NCBI GenBank assembly: GCA_012295275.1 | Contig: CM022679.1 | Location: forward strand, 5,890,001 to 5,954,000 | Source: Chrysomallon squamiferum | Lineage: Eukaryota; Animalia; Mollusca | Length of the DNA stretch: 64,000 nt | Direction of reading: 5' to 3' | Part shown: positions 15,311 through 64,000 of the stretch, one piece after another | Position numbering within the stretch: position 1 is the stretch's first letter | Layout: each line of letters begins with the position of its first letter | Made by a program: the position numbers and the translations under genes | Notes under the pieces: model-generated | The model's database searches: none | The model's input: the letters and a program-made list of their open reading frames with translations, nothing else | Told to the model about the DNA's origin: nothing

Positions 15311-17871
15311 TTACTGGGTGATTTTGTTTTCTACATTGCTATATCGTGCATTTTGAAGGTGTTGCAAAGCATAATATGCCTAAAGTAGATGTTAATGGTA
15401 TCCCAACATTCAGATAGCAAAATACTGACTAAATTGTTAACTGACATTTCATTAATTGAAATAAAGCAAACTGAATACAAGTTGAGTGATTTTAAAGATA
15501 ATGTGTATAATTATTAAAATAAAAAGAATCCAGTTCTTGCTGAATTAATAATGAACAATTTTATTAAGTATCTTTGCAGTCAAAACTGTTTACCCTTCTC
15601 ACTGATTTTTGGTGCATAATTTAGGGTGGCCTCATATATACTTCATACTTTTGTGATGGGACACAATACAATGTGAGGGTGGTTGTGGTTCACAGTGGAC
15701 CACTCAAACATTCCTCACTTTCTTTGTACATCTGAATTAATCCCAATACTTGCACCTTTCTCCAGGTTTATATATTAGAAACATTTGAGAATTTAGTAAC
15801 CAGACCAATCAAATTTTGAACTGCTGCTATATCATAGACAGAGTTTTATTTCATCTTTGATATTATGAGCCCAAGAATGCATTTAATAAGTGAAACAATA
15901 GATAATGGTACTAAGTTACTACTTCAGTGTTTGATCAAATCATCTATTAAATTCAATTCATTTGAAAAAATGTTTCTAAAAACAGAAAGAAATGCCAATA
16001 TAAACAATTTATAGATTTTTTAAATATAAACTTTAAATATATAGTTTGGTCAAAACATTGTAGTTACCAACTGGGACAAAATGTCACTAGCCAAAATGTT
16101 ATGGATTCAATGTTAATTAAATATCACAACATTAACAGAAAATATTTTGAAAAATACAAACAAAGTAAATCTTCTGATTTGTGTGAAAAATAGGGCCTAA
16201 TTGTAGACTGATATAACCAAATAATTTTGTTTTATTATTTTAAGTTAAACAGAGATTTGAAACAGTAGAAAATGAAATTGAAATCAGTGAGTATTTTCTC
16301 TATGGGCTACTGAAAACTAAGGGATTAGCTGAAGCTTAGAGGCACTGGCATTAGGTATCGTTGGCAGGATAAATTCTCCTAAGTGTTCCTGCATTGCTAT
16401 TATATATTTTATCAAATGTTATGATATGAACTTTTCTATTTATGGAATGTTGCATATACCTTTCTATTAAGTGAAAAAACAATTAGCCCATTGTATGATA
16501 GCATTTGTTTCCTTTCATGTTGTATGTATGATATACAATAATGTACAAGATTTAATGGGGAAAAAACCCAATAATGCCACATAAGTGTAGAATTACAAAA
16601 TACTGAATGAATTGTGAATTAAAACGTTTCTTTTGCCTTGACAAAATTGTGCCATTAATAAATAAAATTTCATGTTTTGCTCAATCTTCTAATTTTTCAC
16701 TGAATTTTTTATTACATTTTTATTTTAAAATTATGAAGTTTGCATCCATATTCATTTCTTTTACAGCTTACTTGTATAACGTGTTTACTATTTAATATTT
16801 TTTCATTGAATTTTATGTATGAATTTGGTAAACTAAAATCATTTCCTAACTTGCTGCCTGTCAGTTGTAAAAGATGACATAAAACTATGGCAACAACAGA
16901 TAAGAAATATATTTCTTTTAATTAAATCCATTACAGATGAAAGGCAGAAAATTATTATCAGAATTTGTTTTATTTTTATTAATGCATAATTTTATAATAG
17001 AAATAATAGGAAGATATATTCATTATAAGAATAAAATTAGGTAAACAAGTAATAAAAGCACTTTTTTCTTTATTTAAGTCTTACCCTTTAAAAGTAAATC
17101 TTTATGCATGTATATTTGGGAACATAATTTAATTTGCCGTTTGAAAAAAAGTTCAGATTTTTTAAATGTTTAAAATTGCCCCCCCCCCCAACTACAGAGA
17201 AAAACATTAAAAAAAAACAAATTCAAAATCAAACAATAATAATAGTAATAATAATAATAAAATAAATTTAAAAAACAATCAAATCTAAAAATAAAATAAA
17301 ATTAGAACTTAAAAACCCCCAGCAACAAACAAACCAAAACTACAAAATAACTAAGAATCCCCAAGACAAATTGTAATAAAATATTGAAAACAAAAAGCTA
17401 TACAATAATGATAATAAATGTATACTGCAAAATTCTTTACCAAAAGACAGAATTTCGGTTTCATTTGTTTTACTTGCCATATATAATTCTTTTATTATTT
17501 AAAAAAAAAAAAAAAAAATTTGTAACAACAATATAATAATATTCTTTCATAATAATTTATTCTTTGATGGTTAATCCATGTGAGATGAATAGTCCAAGAA
17601 TTTTGCAGTTATTGTTTAAAATGTCTAAAAACAATATACTCTACAGTAATATTAAATAATGATAATAATAATTTAAAACAAACAAACAAACAAACAAAAC
17701 AAACTAAAAACAAAAAGGATATTAAATTTCTAAACTATTAATAACAAAAAATGTAAAACAGATGTAATAAAATTAATCTAAAAAAATAATAATAATAAAA
17801 ACTTATTATAATAAACATAAAAGAAAAACCATAAAGTTTAAAACACTAAAAAATTGTATAATTTAACAAAC

Positions 17872-17925
17872 CTCATTTCCCTTTTCACCTTTCGGCCCTT
17901 TTTTGCCTCTGCGCCCTCTTCGACC
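17872..17925 (-). CDS. 54-nt basic collagen exon, variant b: GRRGRRGKKGPKGEKGNE
   Basis: ttctttcag / gtttgt. Confidence 0.9.
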
Positions 17926-17998
17926 CTGAAAGAAGTTGCAAGGAGCAAATTTAGCATGCAAAGTAATAAAAATCATGCCAAAATCTAACTTGACAAAC

Positions 17999-18052
17999 CT
18001 GCTCTCCTTTTTCTCCTTTGAAACCAAGCCTGCCCCTGCGGCCTCGCACTCC
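17999..18052 (-). CDS. 54-nt basic collagen exon, variant a: GVRGRRGRLGFKGEKGEQ
   Basis: gtttcag / gtttgt. Confidence 0.9.
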
Positions 18053-19258
18053 CTGAAACAAACTTGGAACTTGACAAAATTGAAACTGATTTTACTCTTG
18101 GGACTATGGATGAATATATGAAATGGATTTTGTAACTTATAGGGGTTGAATATAAAAGGAATAAATGAACCAAAATCAACTAAACAGAAACAGTATCATA
18201 CTAATGTCAATGAAGTTGATACAAAGAAGAAAAATATTTAACACAATACATACTAGTAAAATAGTGTGTCTTACTTCTGATATAATTATATTTATTGTTT
18301 GGTGTGACAATAAGAAAAATTGAAAAGATTTTAAATTAAAGGCAGTGAAAAATAAAATATAAGTGATTATAAAATGAAATAAGGCTAAAAGAAAGAAAAG
18401 GAAATGAATAAATCTGAGGAAGACTTGTATTTTCTATAAATATTTATTTTTATTTAATTGAATAACAGATGTAATGGTTTTACAAAAAAATACTAATTTA
18501 TTTTTGTTTGACATTTCAATAAATGTGTGACAAATATGTTTTGTTTACCTAGAAATATTATATTAGATAAACAAAATCTAAAACTATATTTAGCCCTTTC
18601 CTAGACAAGACTACATATAATTTTGGTATACATATTACGGAGCAGTACCTGATAAAATTGGAAGGGTAAGAAAAGGATTCATACCATACCTATTGAGGGA
18701 AGTGATATTTTTCAACAATATACATTTATTTTCAAAAATCTAATGATAAAGTAATTTACATCAATGCTAAGTATCACCATAAAAACAAAGGAAAAATTAA
18801 AAAAGGGAAAAAATTATGATTTGGTATCTAACTGTAATTTTATTTCATAATAAAGTTTATAAACAGTCATCAGTACAATCTAACTACATACCTTCATTTG
18901 TTTTCATAATTCATAATTCCACAATTATTTATAATTATATCTATCTCAAGTAATAAATCTTCATTCATTTATGTCTTGCATTAATGTATCATGTAACATA
19001 TGTGTTTGCCAAGTTGTCACAAATCAAATATTAATAAAATATAGATAATTACATTTTAAAATCTTCTTTATTTATAAATTTAAAAAAAAAAATAAAAAAA
19101 TAAAAATCCTTTATTAATTTTTTTTAAAAAGCATAGATATCAAAATAATAGTTTTAAATAAATTTATAATTTTTTTTTTTTATTATGACTGTTATAAATT
19201 ATTATGTAGCAATAAGAAATGATTAAATAGGATAATTATAAACAAGAAATACTCTTAC

Positions 19259-19345
19259 CTGTGCACCCTTGTCCCCTTTGGCTCCTTTTTCACACTGGCA
19301 GCTCCCAGTTCCTGTTCCTATAGGGCCTGGTGGTCCTGGAGGACC
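19259..19345 (-). CDS. Exon GPPGPPGPIGTGTGSCQCEKGAKGDKGAQ
   Basis: aaatag / gtaaga, 87 nt, CxC interruption. Confidence 0.92.
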
Positions 19346-20857
19346 CTATTTAGGTACAAAACACATTTTGATCATTTTTATTTTAAATATTTATTTTAAA
19401 AATCAAATGTTTGTAATAGAAGTAATGATATTAATTTCCTGTTTTTTAAACATTAAAAATCAAATTAATTGGAAATAGAAATTGAATTCCTTTTACTGAT
19501 GATGCATATCCAACCACACAACCTGCTGTGAAAATAAAAATAAATAAATAAATAAATAATAAAGTGAAGAACTATTTTAAAAGAAAAAATATTGAGAAAG
19601 ATATAATAATTAGCAATAAACATAAGGCTGAAGGGAGACAACTCAATAAAAAATTAAAAATTAAGTTATATATATATATATATACACTAGTAATACAGTA
19701 CTTCTTGTATAACAAAAAAGTTACTCACAAAACAATAAATTCTCTAAAACAAATGTCTTACAAACCATCCAAATCTAATTAAGGAATTTGAAAAATAAAT
19801 AAATAAATAAAATAAACAATAATCTATATAGTATTATACAAAATTTACTTTTATGTATTTTTTAATGCTGAAAAATTAAAAAAGCAAAAACAAAAAACAA
19901 ACCGAAAAAAAAACAAAAAATACAACCCAATTATAACATGCTATGAGTCTTGAAATAGTGTTTGTAACTATTTGTAAACAGAGGCACTAAAGAAATCTTT
20001 TGTAAAGTACTTTTTTCTACTATTATCAATTTTTTTCTTATTAATCTTATTTTGTTTGTTTGTTTTTCTTCTTTTTTTTCAAACTATCCAAAATATTTGA
20101 AGCATTATTTAATGATTTCAACAAATTATTTGTTTAAAGTGCATAAACAATTAAGCTGATTATTTGTACTATTTCACCAAAATTTAGATAGTAATAATAT
20201 CTTTCAAATATTATTTTCAGTTATTTTTTAAAATGTTTTGTTTTAAGAATGGATTCATTCAGCATCCTCCACTAATTACCTGCTTCTAGCATTCTTGCCT
20301 TGACTATGAACATATTTACTAAGATAAATTTCAAAATGATCATCTTAAATCAAATCAGAAACTGGAGAAAATAAATTAAACAGTTAAAGAAATACAGCCT
20401 ACATTATATTGTGCAAAATGAAAAAAGAATGATACTGAATATTTTAGTTAACAGAAACTGAAATGAAGCGAGGTGTGAAATATGCTAGCAAATGCAAGTG
20501 TCAGCAGTTAAAATAGTTTATATTTTATAATATACAAAATGTAAATTATCTTTATCTCTGGGAAAAAATATATTTTTTGTTTAACTACTATTATTTTTAT
20601 AGTTTTAAGTTTAACAATGATAATATAACTAACTGTTAGGATTTACTGAGTTTTTTAAAGCTATCATAAGAAATTTTATTTTATAGACTATTATAAATGA
20701 ATATAAAAATAAAAAGTATCATTACATTCTTACCAAGTTCCAAATATTTATTTATTTATCTTTTATGAAAAAGTATGATATAAGAAAGCAAATTTTTATA
20801 TAGCTGGTAATAATTTAAAATAAGTGAAATATCTCATGGCATATATATTATAGGAAA

Positions 20858-21309
20858 TGTATATTATCAGGAAATATGTACAATTCCTGCAAATTTCAGA
20901 AAATATATGTGATCACTGCACTGAAAATAAAGAGGCCAGAGTTGGTGATGGTCCATAGAAAACCTAGGCATCCACAAAGCCAAGTCTCACTAGAAAAAGC
21001 AAATTATGACATTAAGGACATACTTTTTTGGTAGAAGATAACAATGTAATTAAATGGACTTTGGGAATCAAATTTGTTCTGTTTCAGAACTCCAAATTTA
21101 ACAGCAAAATTAAGTGTTCCCCATTTGTTACAATATTGGGTTCTGATGCTTGCACTGGCCTGTAATCATCTTGTCTTCCACATAAAATTCTCCATCACTT
21201 GCAATTAGAAGATTATCCATTTGCAGCCACTGCATTTCCTGGATAAATCAGAATTTATACATATTTTCTGAAATGTTCAGGATTATACATATTTGCTGTA
21301 ACATATACA
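20858..21309. mobile_element. Degenerate MITE-like element with ~55-bp imperfect terminal inverted repeats
   Basis: tgtatattatcaggaaatatgtacaattcctgcaaatttcagaaaatat versus the reverse complement of 21250-21309; interior is GC-richer than its flanks. Confidence 0.65.
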
Positions 21310-21567
21310 ATATAGAAGAAAGAATTGTTGTTTCATTTTTTTTTTTTTATGTCATTGTTTACATTGTTATTTTATTTTATCTAAAAATATTTTTATTTAT
21401 TTAATTTTTTTTTTTCAGAATGAAATATTTCATAAACACAGGCTAAGCATTCAGGAAAGTTAACACTCAAGGCATATTCTCTATGCTAAATAACTCTTTA
21501 TAAGTCTATCTAAAAACGAATTTTTTTTCATTTACTAACAGGCAAATTTTCTTAAAATTGAAAAAGA

Positions 21568-21572
<5 letters not shown>

Positions 21573-21633
<61 letters not shown>
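21573..21633. repeat. (AAT)n microsatellite
   Basis: Direct. Confidence 0.95.
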
Positions 21634-21637
<4 letters not shown>

Positions 21638-22795
21638 CAATAAAAAATCAAATAAAAATAGTAATAATAATAAGAAAAACCAAGGTCCAAGATAAACAGG
21701 CATAAGACAAAGAAAGAAACAAAAAGGACTCAAAACTGAAGTCTGTTTAATTGTCAAGGCGTAATAAATCCTTGTTTATTGACTGCTAATCATGCTTTCA
21801 TATATTCATGCTTTAAATTTTTAAATTTTTATTTGCCTTTCTTCTCATCAAATAAGTAAACATTAATATAACCTTTTATTATTAATTTTTTTAATTCATG
21901 TAAATTAGCAGAAGTACTTAAAATAAATGTATAAATAAAATAAAATGACAGACTGAAGACATACATATAAATTACTGGGCTCAGTATTTAATGGTAAATT
22001 TATTTTTATGATCTACTTAAGATTCTTTTGTGAATATTATAATTAATGTTGCAGACAATATGTTACTTAATATTTAATTATATCACCTAACTAGTTATTA
22101 TTATTTATTGTAAGAAAGAAACTACAGGACTTAAAAAAAAGAACTGTCTTTCATCTTAAATGGAAATGAGAAAAAATGTTGTTATAATAACATCCAAGTA
22201 ATGTGTCTAATTTATCATTTAATTTAGCTGTTTAATGGATAAACAAACATAATTCAATTAAATTTCAACTGATAGTAAATATATGACTAAACAAGCAACC
22301 AAGAGTTGTCTCCCACTACAAACCCAAACTAAACATTTTATGTAAAATATCACAAAATTTAAATCACATAAAATTAAATTACATATATAATTTAACAGAT
22401 CAGTGAGAAATACCTAAATATATTGGGTGAAATAAAATAATATTACACATATTTTAACAATTCAATATTTTGTAACATTAAAAATTCCAAATATTATATC
22501 ATAATTAAATTATACAATGTCTCAACATTCATCTTTTATCCTCTTAAAGCAGTTGAATTTAAAGAAACAACAACAGTGCTTACAGTTATTGTTACCTAAT
22601 GATTATATATACTATTACCAAACTGTCTCACAAATACAGAGAAGCATTGTGTAAAAAATAAAAAAAAATAAAAATAAATAAATAAAAAGTAACAGACTGT
22701 TATCTGACCAACTATATTTCATGCAGCAAACACCACAATGAACACTGCTTTGCAATTCAAACTATGGACCATGCAGCAGTAACGTGCTAACTCAC

Positions 22796-22858
22796 CCTCA
22801 GACCAGGTTTGCCCACCAAACCTGGATAGCCGGGCTTGCCAATCGGCCCCTCAGCCCC
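22796..22858 (-). CDS. Collagen exon GAEGPIGKPGYPGLVGKPGLR (likely alternative)
   Basis: cctactag / gtgagt, 63 nt; flanks are relatively GC-rich and motif-rich. Confidence 0.9.
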
Positions 22859-23954
22859 CTAGTAGGTAAAGTGCATGGCAGTGCATCAGCAGTGTCACAT
22901 CCCACAATAGCATACATTAATAATCATGAGGTAGCTGATATTACCATGTAAAACAATTATACAATATTACCATGTTTCTGGTAAAGTTTTTTTTTTTTTT
23001 TTTTCTTCTGTTATTTTCATGAACATTTATTGAAATCTATTTTATAGTTTATATTATTTGGTATCTAAATTTGGTTATTCAAACTTTTTTTTTCCACAAA
23101 AATAATGTAAGATTTGACTCTATCTTCTCTGCTGTAACAACTCTGTTTGATTGCTTTTTGTTTTTTGTTATTTTTTGTTTTGTGTCTTTTATATATATAT
23201 TTTTTGTTGTTGTTTTTTTGGTAACATCAGCTTTGAAGCAATATATCTTATCAGTATCACAGTATATAAAAAAACAGTATTATATTTACATACACATTTT
23301 TTTACTAAATTTAACAATAGCTAAATTAATTAAAACAGCCAGACAAAAACCTCTATTGACCTCATATTCATAACTGCTAATAAAAAACATATTAAAAAAC
23401 TAGAATGACATACTACGTTATTTACTGACAGAGTGAATTTATTTTAAAACAAAAGCTAAATGAATGAAATTGTATGTATATTTTGCTATTAGCCAGTATC
23501 TCTTCTGCTAGTTTTTCACAACTGATAAACTAACCTAAAACTACAGACATCCAGTGGATGAATGAAAAATAAAACACAGGTACCTGGCAAATTGTACTTT
23601 TCTCTATTACCTGAGTTCATCATGAGTTTGCTGGCACTGGTGTCCAGCTGACAAACACAACATCTAGAACTAGTGTAGTAGATTTTCATTTTTAAAACTT
23701 CCAGAACAAATGAAGTTTTTTAGTGACTTAGTACATATATTTTTCCACTTTTTAACTAATGAATTAAGCCTTTTGCCTTTCTATTTTCAAAAATACCTTG
23801 AAACAATAAGTCAAACTAAAGGAATTTTCAAAACATAAAACTACCATTACTCTATTGTTTATAAATTATCAGTCATAAATATGGTATCATTTCTTTTTTC
23901 CATGCTCTTTATAGTGATGCTGAATTAATATTAATTTGGGGACTTTTATTTCAT

Positions 23955-23993
<39 letters not shown>

Positions 23994-25194
23994 CTTATTT
24001 AATTTTTAATTTATTTATTTATTTTTTTGTCATACCTATGTAACAGTATTTTACATTTATAAAGAAATATACAGTGAATGTAAAAATTAAGAAAGAAAAA
24101 AGCAATATCTGCAGATACAGAATCTGAAAAAGGTACTAATTATTACAAAATTAAATTAAAGAGTTGGAAGCCTGAGATATGATGAGATGACTGAATCAAA
24201 ATGAAATGCCATAGTTATGTTATTAAATCATATAAAAATAAAATACAATGATTACTTTCATTACACAAAAATCAAGGACCATTTTTTTTTTTTTTTTTTT
24301 TAAATCATTACTTATGTATATAAGCATGATTGGTATCTCATAATTACTTTACAAAATAACAATAACACATTTGGCGGGATGTAACACAAGTGCAGTGCAT
24401 GTGCGACAAAATCACTGACAAACAAACATTACACACACACCCACAAAAACAGGTGTTGTTTGAACCACAGCTGTTAACAAGTGATGTGACCACTTTATAA
24501 ACATGAACTTTATTGTACAATCTTCAGTGAAAAAAAATAAAAAAAAACAAAACATGAAAAATTAGTGGAATGTGATGGTATATAAAATGAGTAGATTAAA
24601 TTTTAAAAGTTTGAAGGATAGAGATAAAATGGATAAAGAAAAATGTCAGATATCTTGTTATGATAAAGACAGAAGGATGCTGGAGTACAGTTAGTACAAT
24701 GGTCAAATGAATAAATTATTTAATAAATTAATATATGATTTGATTATGAATAAAGATGGTCAAAATCAACACATTTAACTGGAAATAACACAAGTCTTAA
24801 AGAGCAATTTTCAAAACAAAAATATTCTGTATGATGTTCTTTAATTGTATTAGGTCACATGACAAGTGGACAGCAGGGAACAGTGACTTGCACAGCACAC
24901 AACAATACTCTCTGTAACAGAGACATAAATTCTGAAAGTTATTAGCTTTTTGGAGGGCAAACATACTAATATATATTAATATCAAAATATATTTTTCATG
25001 GGCAGAAAAATCTCACAAAATAGAACTTACATTTGTTTTATATAAAGAACAGAAAAATAATGATGGATTGAAAAGATTAAAATTGATTTAAAAAAATAAA
25101 AATAAAATAAAAACAATAGTAATAATAATAATAAAGGAGACTATATAGAGTTTTTCTTTCTTTAAAATGATGAAATTGAAACAAACAAAAAATG

Positions 25195-25248
<54 letters not shown>
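25195..25248. repeat. Poly(A) tract (others at about 3989-4024, 43946-43976 and 60261-60282)
   Basis: Direct. Confidence 0.9.
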
Positions 25249-25250
<2 letters not shown>

Positions 25251-25508
25251 AAAAAAATGAAATCTACATACAGAAAGTATTTTAGCATATATTTTCACAA
25301 CATGTAAAACATTAAAAATATCAAACACAGGGGGAAAAAAAGACTAGACTTTCCCAATTATCCCCTCTAGTAAATACAATATAATGAAATCTTGAATTTC
25401 TCACCTGTAAACATGTAAACAAGGGTATAACTGAAACCAGTACATAAAGCAAAAATACACAAAATAGTCATGCATTTACATTTAAAGAATTAACATGCAC
25501 AAACTTAC

Positions 25509-25553
25509 AGGTAAGCCTATTGAGCCTGGTTCACCTTTTGGCCCTGTGGCACC
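25509..25553 (-). CDS. Collagen exon GATGPKGEPGSIGLP
   Basis: ttaccag / gtaagt, 45 nt. Confidence 0.9.
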
Positions 25554-25865
25554 CTGGTAAAATAATAATATTGTTGTTCTGATTAAAACAGAATTTTATT
25601 ACAAATGAAATAACAACTTACAGTTTCTTAGTACAAAGAACAACAAAAAAAAAAAAGGGGTAAATTAATATTGTAAACAAACATACAGAGAAAAAACCAT
25701 ATGTGTTTCATTATGGCATAAAAAAAATAAATACTATTTAATCAAGTATTTTACATATTGTAGTGAACATTTAAAAAAAGAAAGAATTAAAAGCTGGAAA
25801 AAAAACAATATTAATAATAATTTTTTTTTTATCAAAACATACATAATTCAGACAAAACAACTTAC

Positions 25866-25901
25866 TATTTCTCCCTTAATACCTTGTGGTCCACTGTCCC
25901 C
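25866..25901 (-). CDS. Collagen exon GDSGPQGIKGEI
   Basis: gttttag / gtaagt, 36 nt. Confidence 0.9.
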
Positions 25902-26225
25902 CTAAAACAATAGCAAATTTAAAAAACAACAGTAACAAAAAAAAAGCTACTAAAAACAAAACCCAACAAAAACAACTGAATATATTTTTTTCTGGAATTT
26001 TGCATGTGTGTTTTTAATACTGATCAATTTTATCAATTAAACTTTCAATTTTATGTATTTTCTGATTCCAAAATAGAGAAAAATAAAAAAACAGCACATC
26101 AACAACTGTAACTTACTGTAAAGAGTATTGCTATTAAAGTTTAAGATTAAGTTCAGTTTAAAAATGATTTAATCATTTTCTGTTTAATCATTTACTACAG
26201 CATGGATTTTATATAAATATAATAC

Positions 26226-26261
26226 CTTGATACCCGGTGGGCCCTGTAGTCCCATTGGTCC
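26226..26261 (-). CDS. Collagen exon GPMGLQGPPGIK
   Basis: taatag / gtatta, 36 nt. Confidence 0.88.
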
Positions 26262-26927
26262 CTATTAAGGTAAATAAAATCTGGTATTTTTAATGCAGTT
26301 AAAATATAAATATACTAAATAATGATATTGGGGAATAGCAATTACAGATATCAACTGATGTAGAAATTAATAGCAATATATAAAATAAATAAATAAAATA
26401 GTAATCATAAAACAAATATAAAAAATATAATTTTGGTAAATATGTTTATTTTAAGATAGAACTGAAATTAATTCTTATGGATTTTTTATTTTTTATTATT
26501 CAAATATGTTATTTTTAATTTATCATAGCTTATAACTAATTATTCCTACAGAAGCATGAAGAAAAATATAATAATAATAATATAATAATAATTATAATAA
26601 TAATAATAATAATAATAATAGTAATTAATAACTAAATAATAAATATTATTCTTTTTTAATATAATAGATGTATTATACCATATTATTTTTTCAATATTAT
26701 GGACATTATTTAAACCAAAAACAATTATAAAACAAAATAACAGAGTGGATAAAAAATATATTACAAGTACACATAATTTTATTTCTCACTTTTAAATTAT
26801 TTATTAATTCCAAGAATTTAAATGTATTAATAAACAATTAATAAATACATAAATATGCTGATATTAAATATCTGTTTTGCTTTCTTCTCAGTTATTTTTG
26901 ACATGCATACACTGGAAACATTCTTAC

Positions 26928-26960
26928 CATTGGTCCTGGTGGACCTGGTGGGCCAGGCAG
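26928..26960 (-). CDS. Collagen exon LPGPPGPPGPM
   Basis: ttacag / gtaaga, 33 nt. Confidence 0.88.
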
Positions 26961-27351
26961 CTGTAATACAATTTCAGATTCTTAAATTTTTATGCATCTT
27001 GCATATATACCTAATTTAATTTATCTTATACAAATCTAACTTTTCAAAAAACCCTAAAAAATAACATAATAATGATAATAATAATATAAAAAGGAAGCAA
27101 CTAAATTTTCAAATTTGTGTATTAAAAATATTAGTTAAAATTTGTTATAAATTAAATATTTTTAAATATACAAAATAATGATTGTAGATAAACATGTAAC
27201 AAACATAAGAATATGGCAGTACCCAATAACTTATTTTTAATTTTAATATACTGACTTTAGGTACAGTATTAAACGCTATTTGTTGCTGGTTAATATCCTG
27301 GGAATAAATATTATGACACTGTTTAATATCAAATAAACCCAGATCACTCAC

Positions 27352-27390
27352 CCCTTCTCCACTTCCACCCTCTATAATGCCAGGTTCTCC
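27352..27390 (-). CDS. Exon GEPGIIEGGSGEG (helix interruption)
   Basis: atgtag / gtgagt, 39 nt; its final Gly restores the register of the next exon. Confidence 0.85.
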
Positions 27391-28130
27391 CTACATATAA
27401 ATATAACAAAAAGTTTCTTTACAATAAAAAAATAAATAATCAAGACACAGGTAAATTTCAGAGTTTAACTACTTAAATTAAACCACAATCAGATACTGAA
27501 TATTAGAAGTTACCCACTTTAGCTGTATCATTGTCAGTTATTTATTATGTATAAATGTGTTAATATTATTAATAACACGTAATAATGCAGTATTGGGTGA
27601 TTTATTTGGAATATGTTAAAAGAACTCTATGGACATATCACAAAGTATTCATTGTTCCATTTTGTTGGTTAGTTTAAAAATGAAATAACTTACTTTTGTT
27701 TCATTATATAACAGTATCATTTCAACAAAATTCATTAACGTAAAGACAAAATTTAGTTGTTATAAATAATATCTATATAAAATATTTCAGAGATCCTCTA
27801 TTTAATATGCTCAACATCATCATTTTAAACGATGTATCTTTAAAATTTTCTATAAAATTTAGTTTGGTTGTCTTTTGTACAAGATCCATTTTTTTACAAA
27901 CAAAAAGAATCAATATAGCACATAATATGACAAATAAAGAACAGATAGAAGAGGCAATTAGTTTAAACACATGGTAGAAATGTAGTTCTTGTAAATAGAT
28001 TAGGGACACAGAACAAAAAGAAAAATATGATTTACATAAAACAACTGTATGCTATAGCATTTAAATGCAATTTATCTTGATCAGCAAGAAATAAAATTGG
28101 TCAGTGTTTCTTTGACATGCTTTAGAAATA

Positions 28131-31411: not shown

Positions 31412-33322
31412 CTGAACAAAAAAATATATATAATTAAATAAATAAAAGAAAAAGAGAAAATTATAGTTATTAGAAACCTTTTGATTATTTTGAATAAATA
31501 ATGTTATTTCATTTATTGCAATTGTTTTCAAATAACAATAACACCAAACTAGAAATGCAGTGTATATCTGAAAATAAAATAAATTAGTCATGCATTTATT
31601 AGATTAGAAATTAGTAATAAACAACACCAGAACAACAAATGTCAGTACTAATACAAGAAAATAAATATACAAAAAATAAAATAAAGTGATATAAAATCAG
31701 ATATAAGATACATTTGAAACAATTCAAATATAAGAATGATATGGTATTAACTTTTAGATGATTTAAAGCAGCATCCTTTTGTTGTTTTGTGGTGGATATG
31801 CATCATCATATAATAAAGGAATTCCTGAAATAAATACAACTTAAATTATTAAGAAAATACAGTAATATTTACATGCAGTTTATAATATAAATGTTTCTTT
31901 AGATTAAAAAACAATTATTGAAATGATTGAAAAAATTTGTTGCAAATGATCTTCTTTGAAATATTCATATGTTCATACATTATTTATTTAGGATAATTAA
32001 GAAAATTAACATTCAGAACAAGACTTAATTTCCTTGTAACAAAATTTTAATATATTAAATGTTAATTTTATAGAGGAAGCAAAGCATTAACTGAAATATT
32101 TCAGCTGTGTGTGAATGTGTGTGTGGGTATTTTTATATATATATATATATATACACAAAATCTTATGTCATATAAAACAAATTAGTAGTAATGATCATGT
32201 TTTGGATATGAATTTAAATTTAAAGCTTCTTTTCATTTTATTAGCTTTTAAGATTATAAAGCTTTTATTATATATCTTTTTTAAAAGTTAATTAATTATG
32301 ATACAACTATGACAGTGAGTAGAACTAAGAAGAATATTATTTTACATGTTTTTTTAATTATTATTATTCTGGCTTTATTTAATGTGAGCCTGCTATAATT
32401 ATAATGATTAAATTTAATTTAATTCACAAAAAGTGTAAGTAAACAGAATTAATAAGACTATAAAGAGAACATAATTTTAGTATAAGATTTTCTTAATAAA
32501 GAGTTATCTCCCATACTGTATTCAGCTACCACCACCATTGAAGCTTTAGCCCATAACCTAGAAGAGCAAAATAATATACAAGGTGTATACTGGAACAAAT
32601 ATATTTTTCATTTCAAGAGGTGAGCATTGTAAATAAAAATGCTTTTTAGTCTCCTGTCTGCAACTCCAAGGACATAACATATTAGCCAAAAAAATGTCTT
32701 TTAATATTTTAAAAGCCTTTAGCTATTAAAAACTGATGTGGTAATTAAGTGGTTTACTTTTATTCCAGTAAACACATATTATACAAATAAAATAAATAGA
32801 AAATGCTGTGTGAAAATTATAAATTTCTATCTTCAGTTCAGCCATAAGTAATTTAAAAAGAGTTAAAAATACAAGCATTCTATTTAAAAAGATTTTAAAT
32901 TATAGAAAAGACTATTTATTATAAATGAATTCTTTATTTATTTTATTAAGATTTTTTTCCCCAAACAATGTATATATAATCATGAAATTATAATATTTAT
33001 ACGTTAAATCAAATTTCTTCAATAAGTACTTTCAACAAAAATGAGAAGAAAAAATCTTTATTAGTTAACCTTTATGATAATAATGTTGATGTTTGATAAA
33101 TCTAATACATATAAATTTAAAAAATGATAATAATAAATAATAAATATAATAATAATTGAATGCTTAGTGACTGATGTTTATTGATAGAAGAGTAGAATTA
33201 GCACACAGCAAATTATTAAATTCTGAAATGAAAATATTAGAAAGACACTATTATTAAAAAGGGATTTCTGTGACTGCAGCAAATATACTGTTTTTCTGTT
33301 AGTGATCTTGTATGTGGAATAC

Positions 33323-33526
33323 CTGCAACATTTCATTACACTCATCCACAGGTATAAATTTGTCTGAAGTTGCTGAGCTTTGCTTTCCATCTTGTAAGGT
33401 ATCAGAGAAATTATAGACTGGAACATCAGAATCTGACTCATCAGCACTTATACGTTTAGTTCTGCGACTGCTTTTTCTTTTCACTTCCATTCGGCATGTT
33501 CTTCCACGCTTTGAATAATGACCATA
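33323..33526 (-). CDS. Candidate non-collagenous cassette exon (68 aa, YGHYSKRGRTCRMEVKRKSSRRTKRISADESDSD...DECNEMLQ)
   Basis: CTAAC/CTGAC branch-like motifs plus ttctcatag acceptor, CAG/gtattc donor, 204 nt, phase 0-0, no stop; could instead be a transposon relic. Confidence 0.45.
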
Positions 33527-34471
33527 CTATGAGAATGTCAGCTAGTTAGTTTGTATAATCATTTTATGTCTCTTTCCCAAACCACCTAGAATCATCCCAA
33601 TTTTCATAACAATTTTCACAAAAACAAAAACATAGTACTGTTTTGGAGACTCAAATAATTTTTCACACTAGGAAAAATGTTTTAATATATATATATTAAT
33701 ATATTTTTTATTTTTATTCTTTTTTTCAAAAAGGATTTCTAACTGTCAAACAAATTTAACTGACTGGATCAAGCCAGTATTGTTTTTATCTTCTTCAAAA
33801 ATAAATTATGTGAGATAATGTATTGATGATTCTGGGTGACCGCAATAATTATTTGCTGCAGTCACCTGTGACCCAATTTTTTCACCTTGCTTCAATCAGA
33901 CAGCAAGTTTAAACCTTTTAAACCTCTAAATAATATCAAATAATTACTTATTCTATTTCAACTTTACTGTGACTTTCTTCAATTTCTTTTTTCTCAACCA
34001 CAACTCCTCACTTCTATTTTTATCTTTTTTATTCTTTTTTTATCAATATCACAACTCAAAACATAAAATTAATAATTAAAATTAATGATTTAACATGTTT
34101 TATTTTTATTTCCCATTCTGCCCTGTTTTGAAAACAACATCAAACAGATAAAATAATATACAATATATAATTTTAAAATATTAGTATTTTTGATATTTTA
34201 CTTGCTGTGACTGCAGCAAAAAGTGTGAATAGAGCACTGATGTTCACATAACTGACTGTTTATTTGCTTTGTAAATTAAATCTATTTTAAAATTTCTGCT
34301 ATTGTATATTTAAAATAAAATGATACTGACAATACTTCTAAAAAGGAGTAACAAACCTGGAAAACCAAATATTATAAATTTAGATTATATAACAGTTGGA
34401 TTAAATAAGTAGAAAGGTATAAGCATGCAAAGCAGGAGATAGCTGGTTTTAGATGCCAGTGGGCATCTCAC

Positions 34472-61400: not shown

Positions 61401-64000
61401 ATATGATTCTGATTTGGAAAAAACAAAATACTACTAACATATAAATTAGTCACATTGATGCTTGTATGCAAACATCTTTTTCAGAAACATGAAAAACTAT
61501 TTCAAATGCTTCTTTAATTCTTGTCTGAAGCAATTTGGCAAAAAACACAAAGTAAAACATATTTGCTTAGTTTACCTTTCAGATATCTATATAGATTTTC
61601 TTCTTACTAAACTAGTTCTCTGTGACTACAGCAAATAACGCTGTAAAACAGATGTTATGTTTTGTTTGAGAATGTAAAATGTGTATGTCAGTATATCTTC
61701 TTGGCAAAAAATGAATAATAGTGTGCACAATGTTACATAAACTTTATAACTAAATTAATACACAGAAAAAGTGAAATCCCTGAAAATATAATCACTGGGG
61801 GAGTTTTTTCAAGTCAATAAACAAACAGACACAAATATTTAAGAATGTGAAAAAATGCTGTAACCACATGATCACTTATCATTAAAGTAATCATATATAA
61901 ATGTGATAGTTAAGTCATGAATAATGGCTCGTGCAAAATTCTCCTAGTTTTCAACTGAAGATAATAAGTTTGCTTCCTGTTTTATGGCTGCTTTATTGGA
62001 TGTTATCAGCAGGACCTCTCCCCAAGCTTTAACCTTGTTAACCAACAACATAGCACCAAGGTAGCATGCTTGACTGAGCATTCAACCCCAGCACTATCAG
62101 GGAAATAAAAATTAATGATAAACTATTACAGCAGTTTTTTAAAAACTAATTGCTGAATATTAGAACAGTTTAGTAAAAATAATGCTATGGAAGAATTAAT
62201 TTATTAATTTATTTTATTACCTGAATCTTTGATGTCTTCATGCTGTACTAAACAACCATGCAATATTTTTAGCTTTTATATATATATATATATATATATG
62301 CAGAATAATTATCATTGCTCTTATAGTTTTATTACTTAACTAAAAAAAAGAAAAAAAGGATGAATATAAATGAAAATTTTAAAATACATTACTAACGTTG
62401 ATTTCTTAATTAGAGTTCCTAAATATCTTGTATGTTTTCCTGTTAACCAACCAATCCTTATTTTCATATGGCTTTCTGCCAATACTACAACAAAGTATAC
62501 CCTATGATGTATTTAGTAAAACCTGGTGCTACCAAGTACCTTAAAGTGTGAATACAAACTTCACAAATGCCCACAAAAGTGTTGATGGAATTTTTTCAAG
62601 TGTGATATAATTTAATTTATCATATTATCAAAGCCAAAGACTAATGACTTCCTTCTTAAAGGAAATAAAATAATTAGACTACCAGCAGCATATATAAAAA
62701 ATTAAAATAAATAAAAAATCAATTTAAAAATCAAAGGGAATCAATAAAATTAGTCAACTCTGCTTAATTTATCCAGTTTATTTAATGGAAAAACTGTAGG
62801 AATAACCACTGCACAGATTTTGAGCTGTTTTATAATTCATCATTTCTATGAAACATCAGTTTATTTTGTGATTTATACAAAATGAAAACAAGTTATAATA
62901 AGAAGAAAAAAGACAGAAAATGAGCGACTATTAACCCTTAAAAATGCAGAGAATTAATAAAATATAAATAAATAATTAATAATAGTTTCTGTAGTATTTG
63001 TAAAAATGTATGTCAGTTAATTCTTAAATGTTTATGGCACTGAGCTGTCTGTCAAAATAAGTATATTCCTCAAACTTTAATTTATACAAAATTTATTTTA
63101 AGTTAACTATTTTTAATTTTACTTTTGCTGACATTTTAAGTGTTCCCTTTGACTTAGTAGTCATTGTTACCTTCAAATACTTACCTAACATATAATTTTT
63201 TGTTTTCTTTGGTGCAGATTCATTGATATATAAATTAAACCTTAAAATACTAAGTACCTCATTTAGTTGAGTTTGAGGTGAGTAATGGAGGTTGTTTTTG
63301 AAAATTTGGCTGATCATTAGCTTGACTAGAAGCCATATCAACATGTTGATAGTTCATTAATGGTTTTCTACTCCTAACATATTTACACAGATGTGTATAA
63401 AGAGTATGTTCCAAGACTGGCAAACTGTATGATACCACACATCACTTAAAATAAGTAAGGGTAATTTCATTTTTGATTATTGATTCTGAGTTTACTTTAA
63501 CCTGCTGATCATAAATATTTCAATGTTTATTTCTGAATGAATAAAGCATTTCCTAAAACAAACATGAATTGGTTGATTGTTTAGATGGTATTAGTTGTTT
63601 TGCTTTTTCATTTTTTTTTTCAATTTTTTTTTTACATCTTGTTATTATTTTCAAAACATTTTGTTGCATCTCATCAAATAAGAATATGGGTTGCATCAAA
63701 TAAATAACAACCATCAATTTTTAAATCAACAATGTTTTATATAGACAGTAAAAAAACTGACCAGTAATTACTTATTATGAAAAAGTAATGCCAGGATTTT
63801 ACATTTTGACTAATTTTAAAAATAAAAATGTTTCATTAATATTTCAAATATCTTTGTATCAGTTGTATGTTATTTGCCACAATGATGTTCACTGCCTTTA
63901 TAGTCCTCGTTTTGCAGTTTGCAATTTTTAAAACCAGTTTTTCCAAATGATATATATTAGTTCCATAACCACACTTCAACTGTATTCCATTGTTTTGAAT

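What the first reader, a model, noticed from the sequence alone, without database searches (positions are those of the whole stretch)
22871..24404. Strand-specific long-range RNA duplex over the branch region of the 63-nt exon
On the transcript, GUGUUACAUCCCGC (24387->24374) pairs fully with GUGGGAUGUGACAC (22905->22892). That is 14 bp, and both non-Watson-Crick positions are G-U wobbles; on the other strand they would be A-C mismatches. The helix can extend through UGCA/UGCA and CAUGCA/UGC(C)AUG (24400-24391 with 22885-22875). The arms are 1.5 kb apart, are GC-rich islands in AT-rich intron, and one lies 34-47 nt upstream of the exon. Inference: an RNA bridge or branch-point mask regulating this exon.
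Basis: partly seen in the sequence, partly recalled or inferred. Interest (0 to 1): 0.75.

Follow-up and report, generated by a model that had tools for sequence, protein, structure and literature searches.

The report
Long-range RNA helices in snail collagen
Two short stretches 1.5 kb apart in an intron of a snail membrane-collagen gene can pair into an RNA helix beside an optional exon, likely one of several such pairings that help choose between a short and a predicted long form of the protein, though neither conservation nor effect was tested.

Summary
The 14-bp helix is in the sequence as described (12 Watson-Crick, 2 G-U, -23.0 kcal/mol). The proposed extension and the branch-point mask are not supported: the best branch A (-28) lies outside the helix and stays mostly unpaired. 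Alone the helix is marginal (9% of 569 gene shuffles give one as strong near a splice site). With a nested second helix the pattern falls to 1 of 441 (post hoc). The gene is a gastropod MACIT collagen. The 63-nt exon ends a 10-exon block missing from all four annotated Gigantopelta aegis isoforms. Of 406 intron pairs, three of the five strongest helices enclose exactly the exons those isoforms skip, including a 38-bp, 12-kb duplex around the block. Best reading: an RNA bridge that halves the intron and docks a triple-GCAC patch at the acceptor, within a gene-wide pairing network. No conservation or read data were obtained. The scan noted similar helices on other DNA (CK1-alpha, UBR2). New member of a known kind.

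The parts
24374..24387 (-). Arm A, 5' arm of the 14-bp helix
   Evidence: single copy in the window
22892..22905 (-). Arm B, 3' arm of the 14-bp helix, 34-47 nt before the exon
24390..24404 (-). Triple GCAC patch directly 5' of arm A; candidate RBPMS/MEC-8/couch-potato site (inferred)
   Evidence: only GCACx3 within 30 nt on either strand of the window; one of 2 loci in 35 kb with three copies of any GC-rich 4-mer in 17 nt; motif chosen after seeing it
23219..23232 (-). Arm C of a nested 14-bp helix (-20.3 kcal/mol, 1 G-U)
   Evidence: pairing probability 0.88
22933..22946 (-). Arm D of the nested helix, 27 nt 5' of arm B
24565..24575 (-). A2, weaker second partner for arm B (11 bp, -17.5); takes over when arm A is blocked
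   Evidence: 0.10 free, 0.93 with arm A blocked
22885..22891 (-). Best branch-point candidate UGCUGAU, A at 22886 (-28); predicted, outside the helix
   Evidence: consensus recalled
22859..22884 (-). U-poor acceptor region with two GCAC motifs
   Evidence: T fraction 0.29, joint lowest of 29 acceptors, but leave-one-out score 10th lowest of 29; GCAC count
22796..22858 (-). 63-nt Gly-X-Y exon, last exon of the 10-exon block
   Evidence: absent from 4 of 4 G. aegis isoforms
22720..22775 (-). Two UGCAUG (Rbfox-type) motifs, +21 and +71 below the exon
25509..25553 (-). Upstream 45-nt exon; donor of the 2650-nt intron that holds the helix
22796..31411 (-). Optional block of 10 in-frame exons (615 nt, 205 codons)
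31781..31824 (-). 5' arm of a 38-bp duplex (-49.1 kcal/mol, perfect 16-bp core) that encloses the block
19484..19522 (-). 3' arm of the block-enclosing duplex
19633..19644 (-). Docking-like 12-mer above exon 19345, with two competing partners
22303..22314 (-). Selector-like partner below the 63-nt exon (12 Watson-Crick pairs, -21.3)
   Evidence: 5 of 200 shuffles
32501..32512 (-). Selector-like partner below exon 33526-33323 (1 G-U, -19.4)
19259..19345 (-). Common downstream exon
33323..33526 (-). 204-nt non-collagenous exon joined straight to exon 19345 in the G. aegis isoforms
33850..33866 (-). Element II above the 204-nt exon; partners at 37198-37187, 34220-34207, 33285-33270 and a local hairpin

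Best explanation
The two arms are complementary and likely form an RNA bridge in the pre-mRNA that shortens the intron before the last exon of an optional collagen block and would dock a triple-GCAC patch beside that exon's acceptor. Shown: the pairing, the nested second helix, the motifs, the exon map, and the absence of the block from the annotated G. aegis isoforms. Predicted: the helix closes before the exon is transcribed and cuts the donor-to-acceptor path from 2650 to about 1170 nt, leaving the branch A free. Inferred: the docked GCAC patch plus the acceptor's own two GCAC form a site for an RBPMS/MEC-8-family dimer in a repressive position, while Rbfox at the two downstream UGCAUG favours inclusion, so the protein mix of the cell sets the outcome. 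Inferred at gene scale: a 38-bp duplex loops out the whole 10-exon block, and two selector-like 12-mers compete for one docking-like site above the common exon, giving a short form (as annotated in G. aegis) or a long form (not observed here).
For: Helix best of 25 introns into the last 100 nt; 0, 0, 0, 1 of 250 shuffles. Nested helix 27 nt away, both at probability 0.88; such a pair near one splice site in 1 of 441 shuffles. Triple GCAC unique in the window; RBPMS-family proteins prefer double GCAC spaced more than 6 nt (PMC5311487 passages), and RBPMS motifs within about 80 nt upstream mark repressed exons (PMC6613909 passages). Exon missing from 4 of 4 G. aegis isoforms. UGCAUG within 150 nt below 9 of 15 exons absent from those isoforms against 2 of 15 present, Fisher p = 0.021; both motifs below exon 36401 appear kept in a relative's read-through protein P0036. 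Of 8 skip junctions read from those isoforms, the flanking-intron helices rank 2, 3, 5, 24, 106, 160, 233 and 328 of 406 intron pairs, combined p about 4e-4. Energy and span match validated human cases (ENAH -19.8 over 1728 nt; DST -25.0 over 9431 nt; PMC8052449 Table 1).
Against: No orthologous intron DNA, covariation, polymorphism or read evidence was obtained. Alone the helix is matched in 9.3% of 569 gene-wide shuffles. The nested-pair and GCAC tests were framed after seeing the features. The GCAC flank is mostly paired in the folds (unpaired 0.22). The helix encloses no annotated exon, so the junction test does not cover it; 4 of the 8 junctions show no helix beyond chance (34, 167, 225, 236 of 300), and the tests share introns. 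The block may simply be unannotated or absent in G. aegis; none of the 127 fetched proteins carries the 63-nt exon's peptide (best 14 of 21 identities). The long isoform is inferred. PMC8052449 (passage) reports a substantial false-positive rate even for conserved complementary pairs.
Confidence: 0.42

Rival explanations
1. Chance or neutral complementarity: arm B is GC-rich because it lies in a constrained acceptor region, and arm A is a fortuitous match or the remnant of a small DNA inverted duplication. The helix may form but does not affect splicing.
For: 9.3% (near a splice site) and 25% (anywhere) of 569 gene shuffles give a helix of -23 or better. It ranks 13th among the minus-strand helices listed for the window, and the non-transcribed strand has six listed at -23 or better. 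Similarity stops at 14 nt. The extension is not strand-specific.
Against: Nested partner helix (1 of 441); 9 intron helices at -20 or better against a shuffle mean of 1.5 and maximum of 6; 5 of 17 long introns have a within-intron helix at 5 of 200 shuffles or fewer; no other copy of either arm in the window.
Confidence: 0.35
2. Branch-point mask: the helix covers the real branch A (A22895, -37) or the U2/SF3 contact zone just 5' of A22886, and so represses the exon until it is unwound.
For: A URAY match at -37 lies inside arm B. The helix ends one base before the UGCUGAU heptamer. In a two-fragment fold with the GCAC flank forced open, further pairing covers the branch A (unpaired 0.21).
Against: The better match at -28 is outside the helix and unpaired at 0.83 in the full fold. 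In the two-fragment model the helix raises its exposure (0.85 against 0.33 with both 5' partners blocked at 37 C; 0.64 against 0.24-0.27 at 15 C). Conserved complementary regions in human introns tend to avoid branch points (PMC8052449 passage).
Confidence: 0.12
3. Loop-out of decoys: the helix hides cryptic acceptors and a frame-shifting pseudo-exon (23647-23611, 37 nt, or to 23584, 64 nt) inside its loop, so that the U-poor true acceptor is used.
For: Four of the five AGs of the intron that outscore the true acceptor on the gene's own matrix lie inside the loop; the pseudo-exon acceptor scores 7.1 against 7.3. PMC8052449 (passage) describes an obstructive effect of such pairs on cryptic sites.
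Against: The loop spans 55% of the intron, so 4 of 5 is unremarkable; the top-scoring AG (25404) is outside it; the matrix rests on 29 sites; no transcript evidence for any cryptic use.
Confidence: 0.11

Closest known systems
RNA bridge of human ENAH exon 11a/12 and other pairs of conserved complementary regions (PCCRs) (PMC8052449 passages; PMC10790352 passages)
   Same: Intronic arms of 11-14 nt, about 1.5-1.7 kb apart, -20 to -23 kcal/mol, a nested second helix, one arm within 50 nt of an alternative exon and a protein motif beside the distant arm.
   Different: The distant motif here is GCAC, not UGCAUG; the Rbfox motifs are already proximal; conservation and protein dependence are untested.
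Multi-exon loop-out of human DST exons 46-52 (PMC8052449 Table 1 and passage)
   Same: One long-range duplex encloses a run of exons that is skipped as a unit (15 nt, -25.0, 9431 nt there; 16-bp core, -25.0, 12,281 nt here).
   Different: Here the duplex extends to 38 bp with bulges and the skipped run is a collagen triple-helix block; not validated.
Docking site / selector competition in Dscam and serpent (PMC4691838 abstract; PMC10790352 passages)
   Same: One site with several mutually exclusive partners placed next to alternative donors.
   Different: The choices here are not tandem duplicates of one exon but a non-collagenous exon against a 10-exon block; the focal helix itself has no comparably strong competitor (next -17.5).
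MACIT collagens: collagen XIII/XXIII/XXV and C. elegans COL-99 (PMC4678570 passages)
   Same: Interrupted Gly-X-Y exons, conserved C-terminal region, and complex exon skipping described as common in these genes.
   Different: No RNA-structure control of MACIT splicing appeared in the listings of my searches.

Membership tests
RNA bridge / PCCR | Complementary intronic arms of 10 nt or more, -15 kcal/mol or better, within 10 kb | tested here: met
   14 bp, -23.0, 1469 nt; criteria from PMC8052449
RNA bridge / PCCR | Both arms conserved across species, ideally with compensatory changes | not testable with these tools
   No orthologous intron found: 0 and 5 unrelated-looking hits in two metagenome scans; no genome held
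RNA bridge / PCCR | Protein site within 50 nt of one arm and an exon within 50 nt of the other | tested here: inconclusive
   Geometry met by a GCAC triple and the exon at 34 nt; binding not shown
RNA bridge / PCCR | Exon inclusion depends on the helix and on the protein | not testable with these tools
   Needs a minigene or knock-down
Rbfox RNA bridge (ENAH type) | A distant UGCAUG delivered by the helix | tested here: not met
   No UGCAUG beside arm A in the sequence; the motifs lie +21 and +71 below the exon
Branch-point-masking structure | Branch A base-paired by the helix | tested here: inconclusive
   Best candidate outside and mostly unpaired, second candidate inside; branch point unmapped
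Docking site / selector system | One site with two or more exclusive partners next to alternative splice sites | tested here: inconclusive
   Met in sequence for 19644-19633 and for element II; weak for arm B; exclusivity of the exons and conservation untested
MACIT collagen | Conserved C-terminal region after interrupted collagen domains | tested here: met
   Last exon 95% identical to G. aegis collagen alpha-1(XIII)-like XP_041363376.1; Pfam Collagen, 4 stretches in that protein
MACIT collagen | N-terminal transmembrane segment and juxtamembrane furin site | tested here: inconclusive
   The orthologue has a hydrophobic segment from residue 19 and a KR at 99, but no RxxR there; the matching exons were not found in the window

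The most novel reading that the evidence does not exclude
The ectodomain of a mollusc MACIT collagen is switched between a short form and a long form with about 200-300 more collagen residues by a wired set of competing long-range RNA pairings: a 12-kb loop-out, two docking sites with selectors, and a bridge that delivers a GCAC cluster to an RBPMS/MEC-8-family repressor opposite an Rbfox activator. This would carry docking/selector logic from duplicated exons to whole collagen modules and give an RNA bridge for a non-Rbfox protein.
Probability: 0.25. Interest if true: 0.72.

Novelty: new member of a known kind. Interest (0 to 1): 0.46.

Why it matters
MACIT collagens act at neuromuscular junctions and are known for complex exon skipping (PMC4678570 passages), but my searches listed no work on how that splicing is directed by RNA structure, and none on such pairings in molluscs. 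The AT-rich introns make the candidate elements stand out, so the gene offers a short list of disrupt-and-restore tests. If the focal helix is chance, it is an ordinary coincidence beside stronger candidates in the same gene.

Tried and rejected
No whole genome is held, so repeat content was checked only within the 64-kb window. No read-level data were obtained, which leaves expression, exon inclusion, polymorphism and conservation open. The run search listed 11 runs, 9 holding part of 17700-27500, two of them RNA at shares 0.21-0.22; unlaid, these are not used as evidence. Metagenome scans for the exon: 0 hits, then 5 hits, four high-GC matches that do not continue as this exon and one 63-nt collagen exon (L002) of uncertain orthology without recognisable arms on reading. 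Protein searches: 1004 hits, of which the 120 listed were generic collagens apart from one close relative, P0036; none for exon 34591; one 47-aa relative of that exon, P0127. An exon-enclosing stem between the acceptor and the downstream flank appears in folds but is not beyond chance (30 of 150 shuffles): rejected. The UGCA extension: rejected. Rfam: 0 matches in 12900-48200. Earlier findings near this place, in look-alike stretches, or on MACIT: none. The candidate pseudo-exon lines were off by one base, so their acceptor and donor scores are not used; the 7.1 comes from the AG scan. Helix scans dropped low-complexity arms (dinucleotide entropy under 2.3, under 2.6 later), and searches dropped helices touching exons. 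One search used a preliminary exon list with two mis-set starts; later calls used corrected ones. The rank-1 intron pair (skip of exon 33526) is not an observed junction and was left out of the combined p. Supplements of the papers were not read; the PCCR tables there might bear on COL13A1/COL25A1.

Full report
Observation. On the minus strand, 24387-24374 pairs with 22905-22892 over 14 contiguous pairs, 12 Watson-Crick and 2 G-U, at -23.0 kcal/mol; the other strand gives -16.4. The helix forms with probability about 1.0 in a fold of 24460-22740 and 0.88 in a fold of 24620-22700, where a weaker partner A2 (24575-24565) takes 0.10. Arm B lies 34-47 nt before a 63-nt in-frame Gly-X-Y exon, 22858-22796. 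The proposed extension does not hold: it is about as stable on the other strand (-34.1 against -35.3) and loses to a local hairpin in context.

Chance. Among 25 introns it is the strongest helix into the last 100 nt (next -15.5), reached by 0, 0, 0 and 1 of 250 shuffles under four schemes, and by 4 of 200 for the whole intron. Corrected for the whole gene it is marginal: 9.3% of 569 block shuffles hold one as strong within 100 nt of a splice site. The non-transcribed strand also has six listed helices at -23 or better. Two G-U pairs are weak evidence of strand preference (inference: about one in four for a decaying inverted repeat). Two features raise the odds, both noticed before they were tested. 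A second 14-bp helix (23232-23219 with 22946-22933, -20.3) is nested inside the first, 27 nt from arm B; such a pair at one splice site occurs in 1 of 441 shuffles. The only triple GCAC within 30 nt in the window abuts arm A.

The gene. The exons encode an interrupted collagen whose last exon is 95% identical to a Gigantopelta aegis protein named collagen alpha-1(XIII)-like; its non-collagenous exon is 75% identical, so the window is likely from a related snail. The conserved C-terminus and the orthologue's N-terminal hydrophobic segment fit a MACIT collagen as described in PMC4678570 (passages); the N-terminal exons were not found in the window. All four G. aegis isoforms go from exon 33526-33323 straight to exon 19345, so they lack ten in-frame exons, 31411 to 22796, of which the 63-nt exon is the last. 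They also lack exons 44543, 36401, 34591, 18052 and 13610. Unnamed relatives have exons 36401 and 34591, but no fetched protein carries the 63-nt exon's peptide (127 checked). UGCAUG lies within 150 nt below 9 of the 15 absent exons and 2 of the 15 present ones (p = 0.021). That Rbfox bound downstream favours inclusion is recalled; PMC3082911 (search listing) states only that Fox proteins bind UGCAUG.

The wider pairing set. With no distance limit, a perfect 16-bp helix (31808-31793 with 19512-19497, -25.0) encloses exactly the ten-exon block and extends to 38 pairs, -49.1, with little strand preference (-47.5 on the other strand). A 12-mer above exon 19345 has two partners that differ at one base, one below the 63-nt exon and one below exon 33323. 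Element II above exon 33526 has partners below exon 37659, below exon 34472 and below exon 33323, plus a local hairpin. To test this, I ranked the best helix for all 406 intron pairs. The eight skip junctions read from the G. aegis proteins rank 2, 3, 5, 24, 106, 160, 233 and 328, with 0, 7, 3, 34, 5, 167, 225 and 236 of 300 shuffles reaching them; combined p is about 4e-4. Four junctions show nothing, the tests share introns, and I had seen some of these helices before framing the test. Rank 1 encloses exon 33526, a skip that is inferred, not observed. A near-copy of element II's partner at 61619-61637 keeps a repeat origin open for that set.

Mechanism. The focal helix encloses no annotated exon and nests inside the block loop, so it cannot by itself choose between the forms. 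It would cut the path from donor 25509 to the acceptor from 2650 to about 1170 nt (arithmetic). It would place three GCAC next to the acceptor's own two. RBPMS, MEC-8 and couch potato prefer double GCAC (PMC5311487 passages), RBPMS motifs just upstream mark repressed exons (PMC6613909 passages), and RBPMS works with RBFOX2 in mammalian cells (PMC10570038 passages). I therefore favour a bridge that serves as a scaffold for opposing proteins (0.42). Against it, the GCAC flank is mostly paired in the folds and nothing shows binding. A mask is less likely (0.12): the best branch candidate, A22886, is outside the helix and unpaired at 0.83 with it and 0.92 without arm A, although one constrained fold covers it and a weaker candidate lies inside. 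Hiding cryptic acceptors is possible (0.11). Chance remains a strong rival (0.35).

Comparison. The helix works like the ENAH bridge and meets the sequence criteria for a PCCR (PMC8052449 passages), but the defining conservation could not be tested, and it is not an Rbfox bridge since no UGCAUG lies beside arm A. The block duplex resembles the DST exon 46-52 loop-out, and the shared-site sets resemble docking/selector systems (PMC4691838 abstract; PMC10790352 passages). Searches for MACIT splicing, for such pairings in molluscs, in collagens and in COL13A1/COL25A1 listed nothing on this; I saw listings only. Rfam gave no match. The scan's own notes hold similar untested helices on other DNA.

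Verdict. The core observation is right, the extension and mask are not supported, and the helix is best read as one likely member of a gene-wide set of long-range pairings in an alternatively spliced snail MACIT gene. The 12-kb block duplex is the stronger candidate. Without conservation or transcript data this stays a prediction: new member of a known kind, interest 0.46.

Noticed in passing
window 31824-31781 and 19522-19484 (minus): 38-bp duplex over 12.3 kb that encloses exactly the 10 exons missing from the G. aegis isoforms; 0 of 300 shuffles. Stronger candidate than the finding itself.
   Followed up: partly
window 33866-33850 with 37198-37187, 34220-34207, 33285-33270; near-copy 61637-61619: One element with three distant partners and a local hairpin around the 204-nt non-collagenous exon; looks like a docking/selector set, repeat origin not excluded.
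   Followed up: partly
window 19644-19633 with 22314-22303 and 32512-32501: Docking-like 12-mer with two partners below the two donors that can join exon 19345; the 32512 pairing crosses the block duplex (pseudoknot order).
   Followed up: partly
window 18052-17999 and 17925-17872: Two similar 54-nt exons separated by a 73-nt intron, with UGCAUG between them; G. aegis isoforms use only the second. A 12-bp helix from 19015-19004 covers the first exon's donor. Mutually exclusive candidates.
   Followed up: partly
window 13610-13527 and 13258-13130: Two alternative exons that both encode the conserved C-terminal motif; only the second is in the G. aegis isoforms.
   Followed up: partly
window 41077-41033, 40590-40561 and 39618-39544: Two small exons against one 75-nt exon, used exclusively in the G. 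aegis isoforms; a 25-bp stem at 40455-40431/40276-40252 lies below the second, and 42503-42489 is complementary to the 75-nt exon.
   Followed up: no
window 46147-46131 and 43388-43372: 17-bp helix enclosing the 36-nt exon 44543-44508, which all four G. aegis isoforms lack (7 of 300 shuffles).
   Followed up: partly
window 23647-23611: GC-richer stretch with AG/GT ends inside the helix loop; 37 or 64 nt, so frame-shifting if used.
   Followed up: partly
window 38470-38140: Segment with inverted ends (38462-38449/38177-38164) that looks like a small transposon remnant.
   Followed up: no
L002:1110-1173 (minus): 63-nt collagen exon of another animal with GCAUG just downstream; orthology unknown.
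   Followed up: no
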